Assembly (NCBI GenBank): GCA_963665815.1 | Contig: OY762463.1 | Location: 3,744,001-3,808,000 of the forward strand | Length of the DNA stretch: 64,000 nucleotides | Direction of reading: 5' to 3' | Source: Candidatus Cloacimonadales bacterium | GTDB lineage: Bacteria > Cloacimonadota > Cloacimonadia > Cloacimonadales > JAIOQZ01 | Shown here: piece after piece, positions 21,001 to 27,000 of the stretch | How positions within the stretch are numbered: the stretch's first letter is position 1 | How the letters are laid out: each line of letters opens with the position of its first letter | Position numbers: made by a program

Positions 21001-24000
21001 TGTTTTTAGATTTAAAAAAATTAGGTTTTCTAATATTGAATATTTTTAATCTGTTCAATTTATTTATTTTGAAACCTATGCATAGAAAAAAAACATCTTT
21101 GTTCTCGTCAACACAGAATAAGGTCATTAAATATCCGGATTCATTGATTCTGATTCCCCAGTCTCTTATTGAATGTATACTGAATTCAGGCATATTCTCC
21201 AATTTGAAATCCTGAAAATAACTTTTTAATGATATAAGATTATTTTCTCCGGTTTTCTTTATGAGAAGCTTAATAAAGTTACCCACATTTTCATATTGCT
21301 GATAAGTAAGAATATTCTTTGTCCAGGTTAAACCTTGTTCTTTCAGTATTGCAGCTTTCAAATTTCTCCTCATCCTTTGAACATATTTCTGAGCAGTTTT
21401 CAGCTTTATATCATTTTTTTTTGCAATTTCAGCAGAACTAAGTTGTTTAACGAAATAGTATTTATATATTTTTAAATCCAGTTTACTAAGGTGTTGCCTA
21501 AGTACTTCAAAAGGAATATCATCCTTATGTTTTTCAATTTCCTCATCATATGAAGGAATCTCATAGTTCACTTGTTCCTTAAGTGCTTCAAGTGATCTTA
21601 CTCTTTCACGTTTTTTTAATACATTTAGAGACATGTTATAGGCTACTTTGTACAACCAGCTCTTAGGGTGTTTTATCTCCTGTTCCTGAATGTAAAACTT
21701 ATAAAAGGCGTTCTGAACAATATCTTCTGCATCATCCGTATTTGAAGTTATACTGTATGCATAGTTAAAAATCTGGTATCTCAACTGAGCAAACAGTTGA
21801 TCAGTTATTTTTGTCATACAGGGAAACCTTCAGGATCCGGGCAACAGAATCAGCAATGTACTGAAAATCTTTTGTATCTATACACAGAACATCAATAAGA
21901 ATAGTTCCTTCTCTTAACACACTCAGAATCGGCTTTTGTAGTTTCAGAAGGTCAAAAAAAAGTGAGTCTGTCTGTCTTGTATTTATATTGAGTTTCACAG
22001 CATAGCTGTTTCTCTTAAAATCAGGTAATGTACCACCACCACATCGTCCGTAGCTTTCTGTTACATCAGAATTTACATTCTCTCCCCTAAGAGTATTTTT
22101 CAAGTTTTCAGCTTTTAACTTCACATCATCATCAGCAAGATTGAGGAGTTTGAATAAGGGCGTATTTTCCATAAGCCTTTCTTCAGAGAAATAATTGGAT
22201 ATAACAGAAATTAACGAGCTGATTGTCAGCTTACCAATTCTATAAGTACGCATAAGCTGGGAGGAGTGAATTTTTTTAACACACTCTGATTTACCTGAGA
22301 TTATGCCAGCCTGTGGTCCACCAAGCAGCTTATCACAACTGAATGTAACAATATCTGCTCCGGCATCAATACAACTTTTTACGTCAGGTTCCTCCAGAGG
22401 AAGAGATTCCGGTTTTCTGAGTAATCCTGAACCAATATCATAGATGACAGGAATGTTGTGTTTTTTGCCAAGCTTAATCAGTTCTTTAAGCTCAACATCA
22501 CTTGTAAAACCGGTTATATGGTAATTAGACTGATGCACTTTAATTATTGCTCCGGTATTCTCGTTGATTGCATTTTCGTAATCCTTGAGATGAGTTCTAT
22601 TAGTAGTGCCTATTTCAACCATTTCAGCACCACTGAGTTTCATTATCTCCGGAATACGGAAAGAACCGCCTATTTCCACGAGTTCACCACGAGACACAAT
22701 CACTTCTTTGTCTTTTGCCAGAGTGTTAAGAGTAAGGAATACAGCTGCAGCATTGTTGTTGACTGCTATGGAATCTTCTGCACCGGTAACATATTTCAGT
22801 ATAGCTTTCAAATGATAGTTACGGTTACCGCGACGACCTTTATCCAGATCAAATTCCAGATTTGAGTAACCGGATACTCTTTCTGCCAGATCATTAATCA
22901 CATTAGGTCCTAAAGGTGATCTGCCAAGATTTGTATGAATGATGATTCCTGATCCGTTAATAACAGGTTTTAATCCGGGTTCGGACAGCTTCTTGATGAA
23001 ATCATAAACGGAATCGATCCAGAACTGTTCGTTAGCATCAGGAATATTGTCTTTCAGCAGCTTATTTTTTTCCAGCTTTATTGCTTCTCTGGCACAATAG
23101 ACTAAAAAGGAATGATCGAAAGTGGATTTGAATTCTGCAAACATGTCATCTTGCAGGAGTTTTTCTATACTTGGAATATTAAGTGCATTCATATTTTCCT
23201 CATTATTGGCCGCGAGGGCAGGAATCGAACCTGCCACAGACGGTGTTATCCGCCTGCTACTGATTTTGCAGACCAGTTGGACCACCAGATCCGTCCTCGC
23301 TATTAAGAAAGATTGAATATCTTATTCAATTTATTTACTACTAATAATTATTGGCAATCAATTTTTTAACTTGTACGGCTGTAACTTTGTATTCAGGGAT
23401 TTTTGCGACTGGATCAATTTCTTTGTGGGTAAGTCGGTTCGCAGGACTTTCATGGAAATGAAAAGAAATGAAAACCACACCTTTTTTTATTCTATCAGTA
23501 ACTTCAGCTGCAATTGTAATTTCGCCTCTTGCTGATGAAACGGAAACGAATTCGCCATTATCAATACTTCTTTGAGCTGCGTCAAATGGAGATATTTTTA
23601 TTGTTGGAGGTGATAACCGATCGAACTCTTCACTTTTCCTTATCATTGTCCCTGTATGGAATTGATGCGCCAGACGTCCGGTAGTAAGAATCAGTGGGTA
23701 TTCACGGCTGCAAATTTCATAAGGTGGAACATAGTCCACGATTTTAAACTTTGGAAGTCCAATTGGAAAGCTATTTTCGTGAAGAATACTTGTACCAGGG
23801 TGTTCAATATCCGGGCATGGCCACTGAATTCCGTCTTCTTCGGTTCTATCAGATGTAATACCTCTATAGAATGGGATAGTCTCGTTGATTTCTCTGGTAA
23901 TATCCTCAGAATTCGAGTATTCCCAGTTATAACCCATTGCATTAGCGAGGTCAGTAACAATCTTCCAGTCATTTTCAACTAATCCAGGAGCATCAGTTGC

Positions 24001-27000
24001 TTTTCTCAGCTTCTGCACTCTACGCTCTGTGTTTGTGAAATGTCCTGTCTTTTCAGAGAAACAGGCTGCCGGTAGAACAATGTCAGCCATTTCAGCAGTT
24101 TCGGTCATGAATATATCCTGAACAATCAGCAAATCAAGGTTTTTAAGAGCTTTAATAGTGTGGGTCTGGTCCGGATCACTCAATACAGGATTTTCTCCCA
24201 TAACGTATATAGCTTTAATATCTCCAGATATGGCACTGTCCAGCATTTCTGTGATCGTTAATCCCGACTTATTGCTAATGTCAGATTTCCAGTAATCTGC
24301 GAATCTTTCTATAGCTTCAGGATTGGATACTTTTGCATAGCCCGGAAGAGTATCCGGAAGACAACCAACATCACAAGCACCCTGTACATTGGATTGTCCC
24401 CTGAGTGGATTGACTCCAGCTCCGGGAATACCAATGTTCCCACACATTAACTGTAGATTTGCCAGAGCGAGTACATTCTGGTATCCAGATGTGTGCTGCG
24501 TTATGCCCATTGCAAAATAAACAGCAGCGGTTTTTGCTTTTCCGAACAGTTCTCCAATCTCGTAAAGTGTTGAAGCTTTAATACCTGCTATCTCTTCAAT
24601 CGTTTCAGGTGCATACTTTGTCATAAGCATCTCATTTTTAAAGAGAGTCCATGAGTCCAAGTCAGTACGAGACTTAATATACTCTGGATCGAACAGGTTC
24701 TTTTTAATAATGACATGTATGATTGAGTTAATCAAAGCAGTATCTGATCCCGGTTTCTGGGATGCATAGATTGAAGCAAATTTTGCCAATTCAATTTTTT
24801 TGGGATCAATTACAATAAGCTTGGTGTTATGAAACTTAACAGCCTGCTTGATTTTGTTTCCAATTATTGGATGAGCGGCTGTTGTGTCAGAACCAATTAC
24901 AAGGATTGCATCAGCTTTATGGATATCCTGTAAATTGTTCGTCATTGCACCACTTCCAAGAGATTCTGCAAGACCTGCAACTGTTGACGCATGACATAAT
25001 CTTGCACAATGATCAACATTATTATTACCTATGCAAGTCCGAAAAAATTTCTGGAAAAGATAATTATCTTCGTTTGAACACTTTGCTGAAGAAAAACCTC
25101 CGATAGCATTACTGCCGTTTTCATTAATAATCTTTTGGAATTTATCAGCAATGATTTCGATTACAGTATTCCAGTCTGTCGGAACATGTTTTCCATTTTG
25201 TTTTATAAGTGGAGTTGTCAAACGTCTGTCAGAATGAACAAATCTGAATCCGAATCTGCCTTTACTGCATAGCATACCGTTATTGACTTCAGAATCCTCA
25301 ACTCCCCTAATGCGAATGATCTCACCGGTTTTCTTGAGTGTATGAATTTCAATGTTGCATCCCACTCCACAATATGTGCAGATGGATCTGATTTTATCAA
25401 TCTCTCTGTCTCGATATGCTCTTTTAGAGTTTTTGTCGTAAATTGCTCCTACAGGACAAAGCTGAGAGCATTCTCCACATTGAACACAACTTGATTCACC
25501 GAGTTTTTTATTGTAGTCTATGGTAATTCTTGTATTTCCACCTCTGTCAGCGAAGTTGATTACTTCGTTAACAACAGTATTGTTACAACCGCTTACACAA
25601 TTCCCACAACTGATGCATTTATCAATGTCTTTTACGATGAACTCAGATGATGTGTCAGGTTTATTAAGTCTTTCACCAATAACATAATCATCCATCTCTG
25701 AATAGAATACTGCATCCTGTAATGCACAATGAAGGTTTGCCGGACAGTTTAGACAGCTATGATTACCTGATTCAAGAATAAGTTTAAGGATCATGGTAAC
25801 TGTATGTCTAACCATTTTGGACTTGGTTCTTACTTCCATGTTCGGTGAGACTGGAGTGGAACATGCAGGTACGAGCCTATTGGCAACTTCAACAAGACAG
25901 ACGCGGCAGTTACCGCAAATTCCTGTTTTAGGGTGATAACACAAGTGAGGAATATACATATTGTTCCTCATGGCGCATTGCAGAATTGTCTCGTTTTCTT
26001 TTGCCTGCAGAACCTGATTGTTAATTTTTATGGAAAACATAATGTGTCCGGATAAAAAAAAAGAGAGGTATGGGTTTGACCATACCTCAAAATGTATTTA
26101 TTAATCTTGCTCTGCAGCTTCAGCTTGAGCTTTTCTGAATTGAATGATTTCTTCTCGCATTCCGGCGTTCTTATTAACAGCATTAACTGGACATACATCC
26201 ACGCAGTTTCCACATTTAACACAATCAATTTGTTTGATAGTGTATTTTTCTTCTCTGGAACCGGAGATACAGTTTGTCGGGCAGTTTTTAGCACAAAGTG
26301 AACAGCCGATACATTTATCTTTGTCTATATCAAAGTTGATGAGATCAAGACAAACAAGTGTTGAACATTTATTTTCTTTGATATGTTCTTCGTATTCATG
26401 TCTGAAGTATCTTATTGTACTTAAAACAGGATTTGGTGCAGTTTGACCAAGACCACAGAGTGATGTTTGTTTTATAACATTACCAAGCTCAATAAGTCTT
26501 TCGATGTCACCTTCTTTACCTCTACCTGATGTAATGTTATTCAAGATTTCGTGCATATGTTTAAGACCTATTCTACATGGTGTACATTTACCGCATGATT
26601 CTTCAACTGAGAATTCCAGGAAGAATTTGGCAACGTTAACCATACAGTTACTGTCGTCCATAACAATAACACCACCGGAACCCATCATCGCACCTTTTTC
26701 AAGGAGTGACTGATAGTCTATCTGAACGTCAAGGTGATCGTTTGTGAGGCATCCGCCTGAAGGTCCGCCAAGTTGAACAGCTTTAAATGCTTTTCCATTA
26801 GGAATTCCACCACCAACTTCAAAAATAAGTTCTTTAAGACTGATTCCCATTGGAACTTCAACAAGACCGGTATTTTTAACATCACCTGTAAGAGCGAATA
26901 CTTTTGTACCTTTACTTGTTTCAGTACCCATTTGAGAGAACCATTCAGCACCTTTTGTGAATATTGTAGGAAGATTAGCATATGTTTCAACATTGTTAAC

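What a model noticed while it worked through the whole genome (the two positions that open the first line are those of the whole stretch)
21801..26040. Selenocysteine decoded by a Cys codon: tRNA-Sec(GCA) with FdhA UGU349 and SelD UGC15
The only tRNA-Sec gene (3767207-3767301, minus strand, between fdhA and selA) has the anticodon GCA and discriminator G73. I predict that selenocysteine is inserted at the Cys codon UGU349 of formate dehydrogenase FdhA (3768994-3768996), and probably at UGC15 of SelD (3915889-3915891). Across Cloacimonadales, the codon at these two positions co-varies with the tRNA-Sec anticodon.
Evidence so far: - tRNA: Rfam tRNA-Sec 52.8 bits (cut-off 47) with CUGCAAA in place of the consensus CUUCAAA loop. 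ARAGORN reads gca. selA, selB and selD are over their NCBIfam cut-offs. - Relatives: of 47 tRNA-Sec loci, 25 read UCA and 22 GCA. - fdhA: 17 orthologues have TGY and 2 have TGA at the aligned codon. Both TGA genomes have UCA; all 14 examined TGY genomes have GCA. - A hairpin 11 nt downstream is 91.7% paired with 4 compensatory pairs, and 0 of 500 shuffles reach the score. - selD: all 19 genomes with an in-frame TGA carry UCA. 10 close TGY-type genes lie in genomes with GCA (9 examined).
(Added by a program. Inside this text positions count along the whole contig: contig position 3,744,001 is position 1 of the stretch shown here. "Call 12" and the like, gene names such as g00115 and contig names such as C1 are that model's own, and its searches are not shown. 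The text may have been shortened before it was handed on; [...] marks where a part breaks off. The agent that wrote the report below was given it as the finding of a first reader that could run no searches.)

Follow-up and report, generated by a model that had tools for sequence, protein, structure and literature searches.

The report
Selenocysteine tRNA reading cysteine codons
This bacterium's only selenocysteine-type tRNA has an anticodon for cysteine codons, and two of its genes keep the insertion hairpin behind a cysteine codon, so selenocysteine is probably inserted there, a principle already published for another bacterium.

Summary
A 95-nt tRNA at 23207-23301 (-) scores as tRNA-Sec (52.8 bits, cut-off 47). 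It has the loop CUGCAAA (anticodon GCA), G73 and a long variable arm, and lies between fdhA and selA. It is the only such gene in the complete 3.96-Mb genome, which also has a normal tRNA-Cys (U73).

In 151 genomes of the order, 26 carry the GCA form and 65 the UCA form. fdhA has TGY at the Sec site in 19 genomes; 18 of these have the GCA tRNA. It has TGA in 17 genomes, none of them GCA-only. One selD type behaves the same way.

The hairpin behind the codon is kept within the TGY genes alone, with compensatory changes: fdhA 91.7% paired, selD 100%, and 0 of 500 shuffles reach the score. SelA, SelB (with its SECIS-binding wing) and SelD are intact.

Caveats:
- There is no protein evidence.
- The co-variation reduces to 1-2 independent contrasts.
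- The window's own fdhA hairpin has only 5 of 7 pairs.
- Cys-tRNA must compete at these codons.

The principle is in print (Mukai 2016, not readable here).

New here: four genomes carry both a UCA and a GCA tRNA-Sec, each with two selB genes and one selA.

The parts
23207..23301 (-). tRNA-Sec-type gene with anticodon GCA (23269-23267). It has G73 (23210) and an encoded CCA (23209-23207). The acceptor/T arrangement is 7/5 with an A1.G72 mismatch. The linker is a single nucleotide (A8). The variable-arm stem is 7-8 bp.
   Evidence: cloverleaf counted on 71 distinct relatives
23341..26040 (-). fdhA, formate dehydrogenase alpha subunit, 899 aa, with an N-terminal 2Fe-2S/4Fe-4S (NuoG-like) part
   Evidence: NCBIfam TIGR01591 793.6 bits against a cut-off of 666.25
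24994..24996 (-). Codon 349, TGT, at the position where 17 orthologues in the order have TGA
24964..24982 (-). Hairpin starting 11 nt after the codon (positions 15-33 counted from the U of UGU), with loop GGUCU. In this gene 5 of the 7 consensus pairs form (A-U, C-G, G-C, U-A, U.G).
   Evidence: read; family count; same columns in the TGA orthologues
21801..23192 (-). selA, L-seryl-tRNA(Sec) selenium transferase, 463 aa. It starts 14 nt after the tRNA's 3' end.
   Evidence: TIGR00474 522 bits against a cut-off of 267.9
26101..29401 (-). Upstream genes of the same strand: NuoF-like (26101-27954), 2Fe-2S ferredoxin-like (27970-28338), histidine-kinase-like ATPase (28338-28907) and NuoE/HoxE-like (28907-29401). 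These are the likely electron-transfer partners of FdhA.
   Evidence: matches mostly below the equivalog cut-offs; names are by best family

Best explanation
The tRNA is a true selC product whose wobble base changed from U34 to G34.

Inferred steps:
1. SerRS charges it with serine, using the long variable arm and G73.
2. SelA converts Ser to Sec, using selenophosphate made by SelD.
3. SelB-GTP carries Sec-tRNA(GCA) only to ribosomes that have a SECIS hairpin just behind the A-site codon.

In this genome those sites are UGU349 of fdhA (in the window) and UGC15 of selD (148 kb away). Because UGU and UGC are ordinary cysteine codons, Cys-tRNA(Cys) with EF-Tu competes at the same sites. The product is then expected to be a mixture of Sec and Cys forms whose ratio depends on selenium supply, and failure to insert Sec gives a full-length Cys enzyme instead of a truncated one.

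Shown here: the tRNA's identity features, the intact machinery, the match of codon and anticodon across relatives, and the conserved hairpins.

Inferred from established knowledge of bacterial Sec insertion and from the published Aeromonas case: charging, conversion, SelB delivery and actual Sec insertion.
For: tRNA.
- It is over the Rfam cut-off and is the only such gene in a complete genome.
- A canonical tRNA-Cys with U73 is also present, so this second GCA tRNA is not needed for Cys.
- The body is shared with the UCA tRNA-Sec genes of the order: 71 distinct sequences without a single indel, G73 in 71/71, CCA encoded in 68/71, 93.3% of cells paired, 13 pairs with changes on both sides, and 0/500 shuffles reach the score. 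23 have CTGCAAA and 48 have CTTCAAA.

Machinery. selA, selB, selD and fdhA are over their NCBIfam cut-offs. SelB keeps GTP_EFTU, the SelB beta-barrel and SelB-wing_3.

Distribution. 87 of the 151 order genomes have a tRNA-Sec: 22 GCA only, 61 UCA only, 4 both.

fdhA. The codon was read in 36 of the 38 genomes with an orthologue. TGY occurs in 19 (17 GCA-only, 1 both, 1 UCA-only). TGA occurs in 17 (15 UCA-only, 2 with no tRNA-Sec found). No GCA-only genome has TGA.

selD of the SG[U/C]GAKLGP type. The codon was read in 27 loci. TGA occurs in 16 (15 UCA-only, 1 both). TGY occurs in 11 (8 GCA-only, 3 both).

Hairpins within the TGY genes alone.
- fdhA, 19 sequences: 91.7% paired. Pair 24:42 is A-U in 8, G-C in 5 and U-A in 2, all at synonymous sites. 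0/500 shuffles reach the score, and slid registers give 18.8-60.9% paired.
- selD, 11 sequences: 100% paired, 2 compensatory pairs, 0/500.
- The TGA orthologues of fdhA have the hairpin in the same columns, 97.1% paired.

Published principle.
- Passage in PMC10778597: SECIS recodes sense codons, including Cys UGU in Aeromonas salmonicida, with a matching tRNA-Sec anticodon.
Against: - No peptide, selenium-labelling or RNA evidence exists.
- The window's own fdhA hairpin forms only 5 of 7 consensus pairs. Folded alone, the 60 nt give z = -0.48 (56 of 200 shuffles fold as well), and the minimum-energy fold is a different one. The selD stretch alone gives z = +0.35.
- Co-variation of codon and anticodon reduces to 1-2 independent contrasts. 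The fewest codon changes on the FdhA tree is 3, and well-supported branches force only 1.
- G120 has fdhA TGC with a UCA tRNA only, so a Cys form of this enzyme is viable.
- G017 has a GCA tRNA, but its fdhA has lost the hairpin (loop GGACU).
- Two other selD types carry TGY in both anticodon classes and are probably true Cys enzymes. So TGY in selD is not by itself a sign of Sec.
- GCA is a known identity element for CysRS (passages in PMC5389517 and PMC7609411), so some charging with Cys is not excluded.
Confidence: 0.72

Rival explanations
1. Plain cysteine. UGU349 and UGC15 are read only by the canonical tRNA-Cys. Under this reading the GCA tRNA-Sec gene and the hairpins are leftovers of a former UGA-Sec system, or the tRNA has some other role.
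For: - Cys forms of both enzymes exist in the order: G120 fdhA TGC with a UCA tRNA only, and selD types b and c with TGY in both anticodon classes.
- The own fdhA hairpin is weak and not significant when folded alone.
- Only 1-2 independent contrasts support the co-variation.
Against: - A leftover would decay. Instead tRNA, selA, selB (with its SECIS-binding wing) and selD stay intact in 22 GCA-only genomes of at least 7 families, whose FdhA proteins are only 51-56% identical to the window's.
- The hairpins keep pairing through compensatory synonymous changes within the TGY genes.
- Where selection on the hairpin seems to have lapsed (G017), it is gone.
- No TGA-type fdhA or selD was found for such a system to serve in the complete own genome.
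Confidence: 0.13
2. A tRNA-Sec look-alike for cysteine. The tRNA would be charged with Cys by CysRS through its GCA anticodon and delivered by SelB to hairpin-marked Cys codons. This is like the selC* tRNA-Cys described in deltaproteobacteria.
For: GCA is a strong CysRS identity element, and tRNA-Sec-like tRNA-Cys species with GCA or UCA anticodons exist (passages in PMC5389517 and PMC7609411).
Against: - Those tRNAs have U73 and an 8/4 acceptor/T arrangement. This one has G73 (71/71 in the order) and 7/5, whereas the genome's own tRNA-Cys has U73.
- selA lies 14 nt downstream of the tRNA, and selD is kept. Neither is needed to insert Cys.
- Delivering Cys to a Cys codon would gain nothing.
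Confidence: 0.05
3. Assembly or annotation artefact: the G at position 34 is a sequencing error, or the tRNA is a misread tRNA-Ser or tRNA-Cys.
For: None found. ARAGORN does label it tRNA-Cys, but only because of the anticodon.
Against: - The same G34 occurs in 26 genomes of the order (23 of the 71 distinct tRNA sequences), including the same-genus genome G001.
- It also occurs in 10 of 53 Cloacimonadota loci in an independent scan of named public records.
- Three DNA runs of one study hold 97-100% of the sampled words of the stretch. These may be the source sample, so they are not independent.
Confidence: 0.01

Closest known systems
Sec encoded by the Cys codon UGU in formate dehydrogenase of Aeromonas salmonicida subsp. 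pectinolytica (Mukai et al. 2016, Angew Chem 55:5337). I could not read the paper; I know it through passages in PMC10778597, PMC8124441, PMC5330540 and PMC5756416.
   Same: - A tRNA-Sec whose anticodon matches a Cys codon.
- A formate dehydrogenase gene with that codon at the Sec site, followed by a SECIS.
- A 12-bp acceptor/T branch recognised by its SelA (passage in PMC10778597).
   Different: - The Aeromonas genome paper gives that tRNA's anticodon as ACA (passage). Here it is GCA, which can read both UGC and UGU, and both codons are used (TGT in fdhA, TGC in selD).
- The phylum here is Cloacimonadota.
- Here the trait spans many families, and selD is a second client.
- The Aeromonas case has labelling or mass-spectrometry support (abstract recalled, not seen here). 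This one has none.
'Cloacimonetes type' tRNA-Sec. It is described in PMC5330540 (passage, citing Mukai 2016) as having 12 bp (7+5) and lacking one nucleotide in the linker between the acceptor and D stems.
   Same: This is exactly the body found here: 7 positions between the T stem and G73, a 5-bp T stem and a one-nucleotide linker.
   Different: - The passage says nothing about the anticodon. I could not establish whether the GCA form in this phylum was reported.
- Here position 1:72 is unpaired in 65 of 71 sequences, a detail the passage does not mention.
selC* tRNA-Cys, a tRNA-Sec-like cysteine tRNA (PMC5389517, PMC7609411; passages)
   Same: tRNA-Sec-like shape combined with a GCA (or UCA) anticodon.
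   Different: selC* has U73 and an 8/4 structure, is a CysRS substrate, and is thought to put Cys at UGA. Here the tRNA has G73 and 7/5, selA is adjacent, and the codon is a Cys codon.
Canonical bacterial Sec insertion (selC with UCA, SelA, SelB, SelD, SECIS behind UGA), as in the UCA-type relatives of the same order
   Same: All protein parts, the tRNA body, and the fdhA hairpin in the same columns.
   Different: - The codon is TGY instead of TGA and the anticodon is GCA instead of UCA.
- Competition is with Cys-tRNA/EF-Tu instead of release factor 2.
- A miss gives a Cys enzyme, not a truncated one.

Membership tests
bacterial tRNA-Sec (selC) | Matches the Rfam RF01852 covariance model over its gathering score | tested here: met
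   52.8 bits against 47; the only such match in the genome
bacterial tRNA-Sec (selC) | SerRS identity elements: long variable arm and discriminator G73 | tested here: met
   Variable-arm stem of 8 pairs, 90.7% paired across 71 sequences with 4 compensatory pairs. G73 in 71/71.
bacterial tRNA-Sec (selC) | 13-bp acceptor/T branch (8/5) | tested here: not met
   7/5, with 1:72 unpaired in 65/71 sequences. This matches the published 'Cloacimonetes type' 12-bp variant (PMC5330540 passage).
bacterial tRNA-Sec (selC) | Anticodon UCA | tested here: not met
   GCA. Anticodon variants are a published exception.
bacterial tRNA-Sec (selC) | 6-bp D stem with a 4-nt loop | tested here: met
   Helix 9-14/19-24 is 93.9% paired with 2 compensatory pairs and the loop is 4 nt. 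In the window's own tRNA the first pair is C.A.
bacterial tRNA-Sec (selC) | Serylation, conversion to Sec by SelA, binding by SelB and rejection by EF-Tu | not testable with these tools
   Only genomic linkage is available: selA lies 14 nt downstream. In relatives the order tRNA(GCA)-selA-selB is found in 7 of 26 GCA loci.
selC* tRNA-Cys | Discriminator U73 and an 8/4 acceptor/T branch | tested here: not met
   G73 and 7/5. Definition taken from PMC5389517 and PMC7609411 passages.
canonical tRNA-Cys | About 74 nt, short variable loop, U73 | tested here: not met
   95 nt, long variable arm, G73. The genome's canonical tRNA-Cys (74 nt, U73) lies elsewhere.
Sec-dependent formate dehydrogenase alpha subunit | Fdh-alpha equivalog with the catalytic Sec/Cys in the ...CARxUH... 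position | tested here: met
   TIGR01591 793.6 bits against 666.25. C349 aligns with in-frame TGA in 17 orthologues.
Sec-dependent formate dehydrogenase alpha subunit | In-frame UGA at that position | tested here: not met
   TGT
bacterial SECIS | Conserved hairpin starting about 11 nt after the recoded codon, supported by covariation | tested here: met
   - fdhA TGY group: 91.7% paired, 4 compensatory pairs, 0/500.
- TGA group: same columns, 97.1% paired.
- selD TGY group: 100% paired, 0/500.
- The window's own fdhA copy forms 5 of 7 pairs.
bacterial SECIS | Binding by SelB | not testable with these tools
   SelB keeps the SelB-wing_3 domain (33.9 bits against 23.2).

The most novel reading that the evidence does not exclude
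Cys-codon selenocysteine is not a curiosity of single strains. It is the standing code of a large part of the Cloacimonadales: 22 of 87 Sec-using genomes sampled carry the GCA tRNA alone, in at least 7 families.

Some species also run two Sec-decoding channels in one cell. G014 (a one-contig genome), G034, G040 and G009 each carry a UCA and a GCA tRNA-Sec, two full-length selB genes and a single selA. One selB lies beside the UCA tRNA. The other lies in the selA-selB unit, which in the g2 genomes also holds the GCA tRNA.

In G009, selD has TGA and fdhA has TGC, each followed by its hairpin. If both channels work, UGA and UGY both mean Sec in the same cell, each with its own tRNA and perhaps its own SelB.
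Probability: 0.45. Interest if true: 0.72.

Novelty: new member of a known kind. Interest (0 to 1): 0.5.

Why it matters
- Surveys of selenoproteins look for in-frame UGA. A 2026 review of prokaryotic selenoproteomes that I searched for the terms holds neither 'Cys codon', 'cysteine codon' nor 'sense codon'. Genes like this fdhA and selD are therefore annotated as Cys homologues, their genomes look like Sec-machinery carriers without clients, and selenium use in Cloacimonadota is undercounted.
- The case is a natural example of a sense codon with two meanings, chosen by mRNA context. A miss gives a working Cys enzyme instead of a truncated protein, which may explain why the switch can spread.
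- The genomes with both tRNAs and two SelB factors would be a natural test bed for how two recoding channels are kept apart.
- Their parts (a 12-bp tRNA-Sec, SelA, two SelB types) are of the kind already exploited for engineered selenoprotein synthesis (PMC10778597 passages).

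Tried and rejected
- **Mukai et al. 2016.** The paper is not held, either as PMC4833512 or by DOI. Four full-text searches and passages from nine papers did not show whether the GCA anticodon in Cloacimonadota was reported there. Only PMC5330540 holds 'Cloacimonetes' together with 'tRNASec'.
- **More recoded genes.**
  - I read every in-frame TGA in the held loci of other genomes and compared the frames with the own genome. 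Only fdhA (17 supporting frames) and selD (16) came out. All other Cys-aligned hits were off-frame or antisense artefacts.
  - I put 68 of 83 frames holding a single TGA, from loci of UCA-bearing genomes, through Pfam. The other 15 were the known fdhA and selD genes. No family match spanned a TGA; the hits were run-ons of neighbouring genes.
  - The clients of the UCA channel in the g2 genomes, and any further UGY clients in the own genome, therefore remain unknown.
- **GrdA and GrdB.** The Pfam models PF04723 and PF07355 found nothing in G000, G014, G034, G009 and G022. They also found nothing in the 14 control genomes, so this says little.
- **Synteny.** Only 3 of the tRNA-Sec loci held at that point have fdhA next to the tRNA as in the window (G001, G011, G104), so synteny could not be used to find orthologues.
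- **Single-sequence folding.** Folding the two hairpin stretches alone gives no signal. Only the comparative counts do.
- **Rows dropped before counts.**
  - G117's match (47.1 bits) is a tRNA-Ser(cga) by ARAGORN.
  - L135 is a 39%-identical fdhA paralogue of G122.
  - L136 is a second fragment of G150.
  - The fdhA fragments of G138 and G031 do not reach codon 349.
  - One SelB row shorter than 560 aa (G045) was left out of the tree. The G008 and G092 selB loci yielded no usable frame.

Full report
**What is there**

On the minus strand the window holds, in this order:
- a NuoE-like gene, a kinase-like ATPase, a 2Fe-2S ferredoxin-like gene and a NuoF-like gene (29401-26101);
- fdhA (26040-23341);
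- a 95-nt tRNA (23301-23207), 39 nt after fdhA;
- selA (23192-21801), 14 nt after the tRNA.

ARAGORN reads the tRNA's anticodon as gca. Rfam's tRNA-Sec model scores it 52.8 bits against a gathering score of 47, with CUGCAAA where the consensus has CUUCAAA.

The genome is one contig of 3,963,599 bases, rated 98.66% complete. This is its only match over the cut-off. Among its 41 tRNAs there are two with GCA and none with UCA. The second GCA tRNA is an ordinary 74-nt tRNA-Cys with U73.

FdhA, SelA and SelD pass their NCBIfam cut-offs, as does SelB. SelB also retains the C-terminal SelB-wing_3 domain. selD and selB lie outside the window, at contig positions 3915847-3916881 (+) and 3926829-3928778 (-).

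**The tRNA is a selC homologue that differs at position 34**

I scanned 151 genomes of the order with RF01852, fetched every place over the cut-off and read the anticodons. One place (G117, 47.1 bits) is a tRNA-Ser and was dropped. That leaves 92 genes in 87 genomes: 26 GCA and 66 UCA. By genome, 22 have GCA only, 61 have UCA only and 4 have both.

All 92 align without a single internal gap. On the 71 distinct sequences the cloverleaf I wrote down is 93.3% paired, with 13 pairs changed on both sides. 0 of 500 shuffles reach the score, and slid registers give 34.6-47.3% paired.

The arrangement is:
- 7 acceptor positions and a 5-bp T stem;
- a one-nucleotide linker;
- a 6-bp D stem with a 4-nt loop;
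- an 8-pair variable arm;
- G73 in 71/71 and an encoded CCA in 68/71.

This is the 'Cloacimonetes type' as described in a passage of PMC5330540 that cites Mukai 2016. Position 1:72 is unpaired in 65 of 71 sequences (A.G, C.A or A.A). I suggest, as inference only, that this helps keep a 12-bp tRNA-Sec away from EF-Tu. That would be vital for a tRNA that could otherwise put Ser or Sec at every Cys codon.

The tRNA fails the tests for two alternative families. It lacks the U73 and 8/4 branch of selC* tRNA-Cys, and it is not a canonical tRNA-Cys.

**Codon follows anticodon**

*fdhA.* Orthologues were found in 38 of 151 genomes, and the aligned codon could be read in 36.
- TGY in 19 genomes: 17 GCA-only, the double genome G009, and G120 with a UCA tRNA only.
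- TGA in 17 genomes: 15 UCA-only, and two incomplete genomes with no tRNA-Sec found.
- No GCA-only genome has TGA.

*selD.* It falls into three types.
- The standalone SG[U/C]GAKLGP type has TGA in 16 loci (15 UCA-only genomes and G009). It has TGY in 11 (8 GCA-only genomes and 3 with both tRNAs).
- The GGCSAKLSP type has TGY also in a UCA genome (G042).
- The roughly 740-aa fused type has TGY in both anticodon classes.

The last two types are most simply true Cys enzymes. Many further selD matches flagged '1 TGA' were not read at the codon level.

**How much this co-variation is worth**

The co-variation is worth less than the counts suggest. On a SelB tree of 59 proteins all GCA-linked SelB fall in one clade of 27 (SH-aLRT 97), which also contains the UCA-linked SelB of family f12. 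The method of independent pairs finds only 1 well-supported contrast, or 2 on all branches, for selD and 1 for fdhA.

On the FdhA tree the TGA genes are nested in one f11 clade. Three codon changes are the fewest needed, and well-supported branches force only one. G120's TGC gene sits beside TGA genes, which suggests a secondary change to a true Cys enzyme. The association is therefore real, but it rests on very few events.

**The hairpins carry the argument**

- *fdhA, TGY genes alone.* In the 19 TGY genes a 7-pair hairpin with loop GGUCU starts 11 nt after the codon and is 91.7% paired. Four pairs change on both sides, all at synonymous sites; one example is GCA...UUG against GCC...CUG. 0 of 500 shuffles reach the score, and slid registers give 18.8-60.9% paired.
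- *fdhA, TGA orthologues.* The 17 TGA orthologues have the hairpin in the same columns, 97.1% paired. It is therefore the SECIS of this gene family, retained after the codon changed.
- *selD, TGY genes.* In the 11 TGY selD genes a 7-pair hairpin at positions 13-31 is paired in 77 of 77 cells, with two compensatory pairs and 0 of 500 shuffles.
- *Loop change in selD.* The loop reads CGUGY in all 11 TGY genes, against CGGGG, CGGGA, CGGGU, CCGGA, CAGAG or CGGAG in the 16 TGA genes. This turns Gly22 into Cys22. I have no explanation for it.
- *Where the hairpin is weak or lost.* G017 (GCA tRNA, fdhA TGC) has lost the hairpin. The window's own fdhA copy keeps 5 of 7 pairs. Folded alone it is not distinguishable from shuffled sequence.

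**Mechanism**

The most likely reading, at about 0.7, is standard bacterial Sec insertion moved from UGA to UGY. It runs by serylation, SelA conversion and SelB delivery directed by the hairpin. Competition comes from Cys-tRNA with EF-Tu instead of release factor 2. The product should be a mixture of Sec and Cys forms that depends on selenium supply.

The main rival is that the codons are plain cysteine codons and the machinery a relic. It fits poorly for three reasons: an intact tRNA, selA, selB and selD persist across families whose FdhA are only 51-56% identical to the window's; the hairpins keep pairing through compensatory changes; and the complete genome has no UGA-type fdhA or selD for the machinery to serve.

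**What is known**

Passages in PMC10778597, PMC8124441 and PMC5330540 state that Mukai et al. 2016 found tRNA-Sec anticodon variants with matching codons in selenoprotein genes. These include the Cys codons UGU and UGC, and UGU was shown in Aeromonas salmonicida. The Aeromonas genome paper gives that tRNA's anticodon as ACA. The 2016 paper is not held, so I cannot say whether the GCA form in this phylum is listed there. I think it likely.

In a truncated scan of one genome per species for the T-arm and acceptor motif (119 loci), the long GCA form occurs in 10 of 53 loci whose records are named Candidatus Cloacimonadota. It occurs in 0 of 63 tRNA-Sec from other or unnamed phyla. I therefore file the finding as a new member of a known kind.

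**Beyond the finding: genomes with two channels**

Four genomes carry both a UCA and a GCA tRNA-Sec, all over the Rfam cut-off:
- G014, a single 3.9-Mb contig, which excludes a binning artefact;
- G034 and G040;
- G009.

Each has two full-length selB genes without stops but one selA.

In the three g2 genomes one selB lies in a tRNA(GCA)-selA-selB unit and is 57% identical to the window's SelB. The other lies beside the UCA tRNA and sits on a long separate branch of the tree. All of them keep the SelB-wing_3 domain. The fourth species of that genus, G022, has only the GCA set.

In G009, selD has TGA and fdhA has TGC, each with its hairpin. I did not find the UGA clients in the g2 genomes.

Noticed in passing
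Relatives G014 (L040, L041), G034 (L035, L043, L215), G040 (L016, L042, L214), G009 (L014, L049, L205, L213): Four genomes carry both a UCA and a GCA tRNA-Sec, two complete selB genes and one selA. The UCA-adjacent SelB of the three g2 genomes is short (600-608 aa) and sits on a long separate branch. In G009, selD has TGA and fdhA has TGC.
   Followed up: partly
selD of 11 TGY genomes (alignment A3, columns 29-33); own copy at contig 3915907-3915911, outside the window: The loop of the selD hairpin is CGUGY in all 11 TGY genes. In the 16 TGA genes it is CGGGG, CGGGA, CGGGU, CCGGA, CAGAG or CGGAG. This makes residue 22 a Cys instead of Gly or Glu. No explanation.
   Followed up: partly
Alignment A2, columns 1 and 91 (window 23301 and 23211): Position 1:72 of the tRNA-Sec is unpaired in 65 of 71 distinct sequences of the order. 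The combinations are A.G in 39, C.A in 18 and A.A in 8. It may be an EF-Tu antideterminant for this 12-bp form; this is inference only.
   Followed up: partly
G120 (L108, L010) and G017 (L130, L045): Two odd cases. G120 has fdhA TGC with an intact hairpin but only a UCA tRNA-Sec (93% complete, 4% contamination). G017 has a GCA tRNA, but its fdhA (TGC) has lost the hairpin and has loop GGACU.
   Followed up: partly
Order-wide scans: Family f3, one of the two largest in the sample (54 genomes, as many as f11), has no SelB, SelD or FdhA match. Its only tRNA-Sec-model match over the cut-off (G117) is a tRNA-Ser. The Sec trait seems absent from that family in the genomes searched.
   Followed up: no
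L237-L355 (genome-contig scan): The 22-nt T-arm plus acceptor motif of this tRNA-Sec is shared exactly by UCA tRNA-Sec genes in records named Bacteroidota (29), Verrucomicrobiota (5), Fibrobacterota (4), Ignavibacteriota (4), Planctomycetota (3) and others. One chance match lies in a 72-nt tRNA-Cys of a Massilia record.
   Followed up: partly
selD loci L165, L166, L178-L188: A fused form with an open frame of about 740 aa, carrying SelD at one end (motif GLGCACK, Cys codon), occurs in both UCA and GCA genomes. Several genomes have it beside, or instead of, the standalone SelD.
   Followed up: no
L033, L017, L022 and other f12 loci: In family f12 the tRNA-Sec(UCA)-selA-selB unit lies directly after a NuoF-like gene similar to the window's (26101-27954), with no fdhA between them. 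No fdhA orthologue was found in 12 of 12 f12 genomes. Their selenoproteins other than SelD are unknown.
   Followed up: no
window 20909-21817 (-): A 302-aa ORF overlaps the end of selA by 17 bases. Its first 160 residues match ECF-type sigma-70 factors (TIGR02937 52.3 bits against a cut-off of 42.9); the rest is unassigned.
   Followed up: no
window 23341-26040 (-): The window's FdhA and that of its genus mate sit on a long branch (0.68 changes per column). They are only 51-56% identical to all other orthologues of the order.
   Followed up: no
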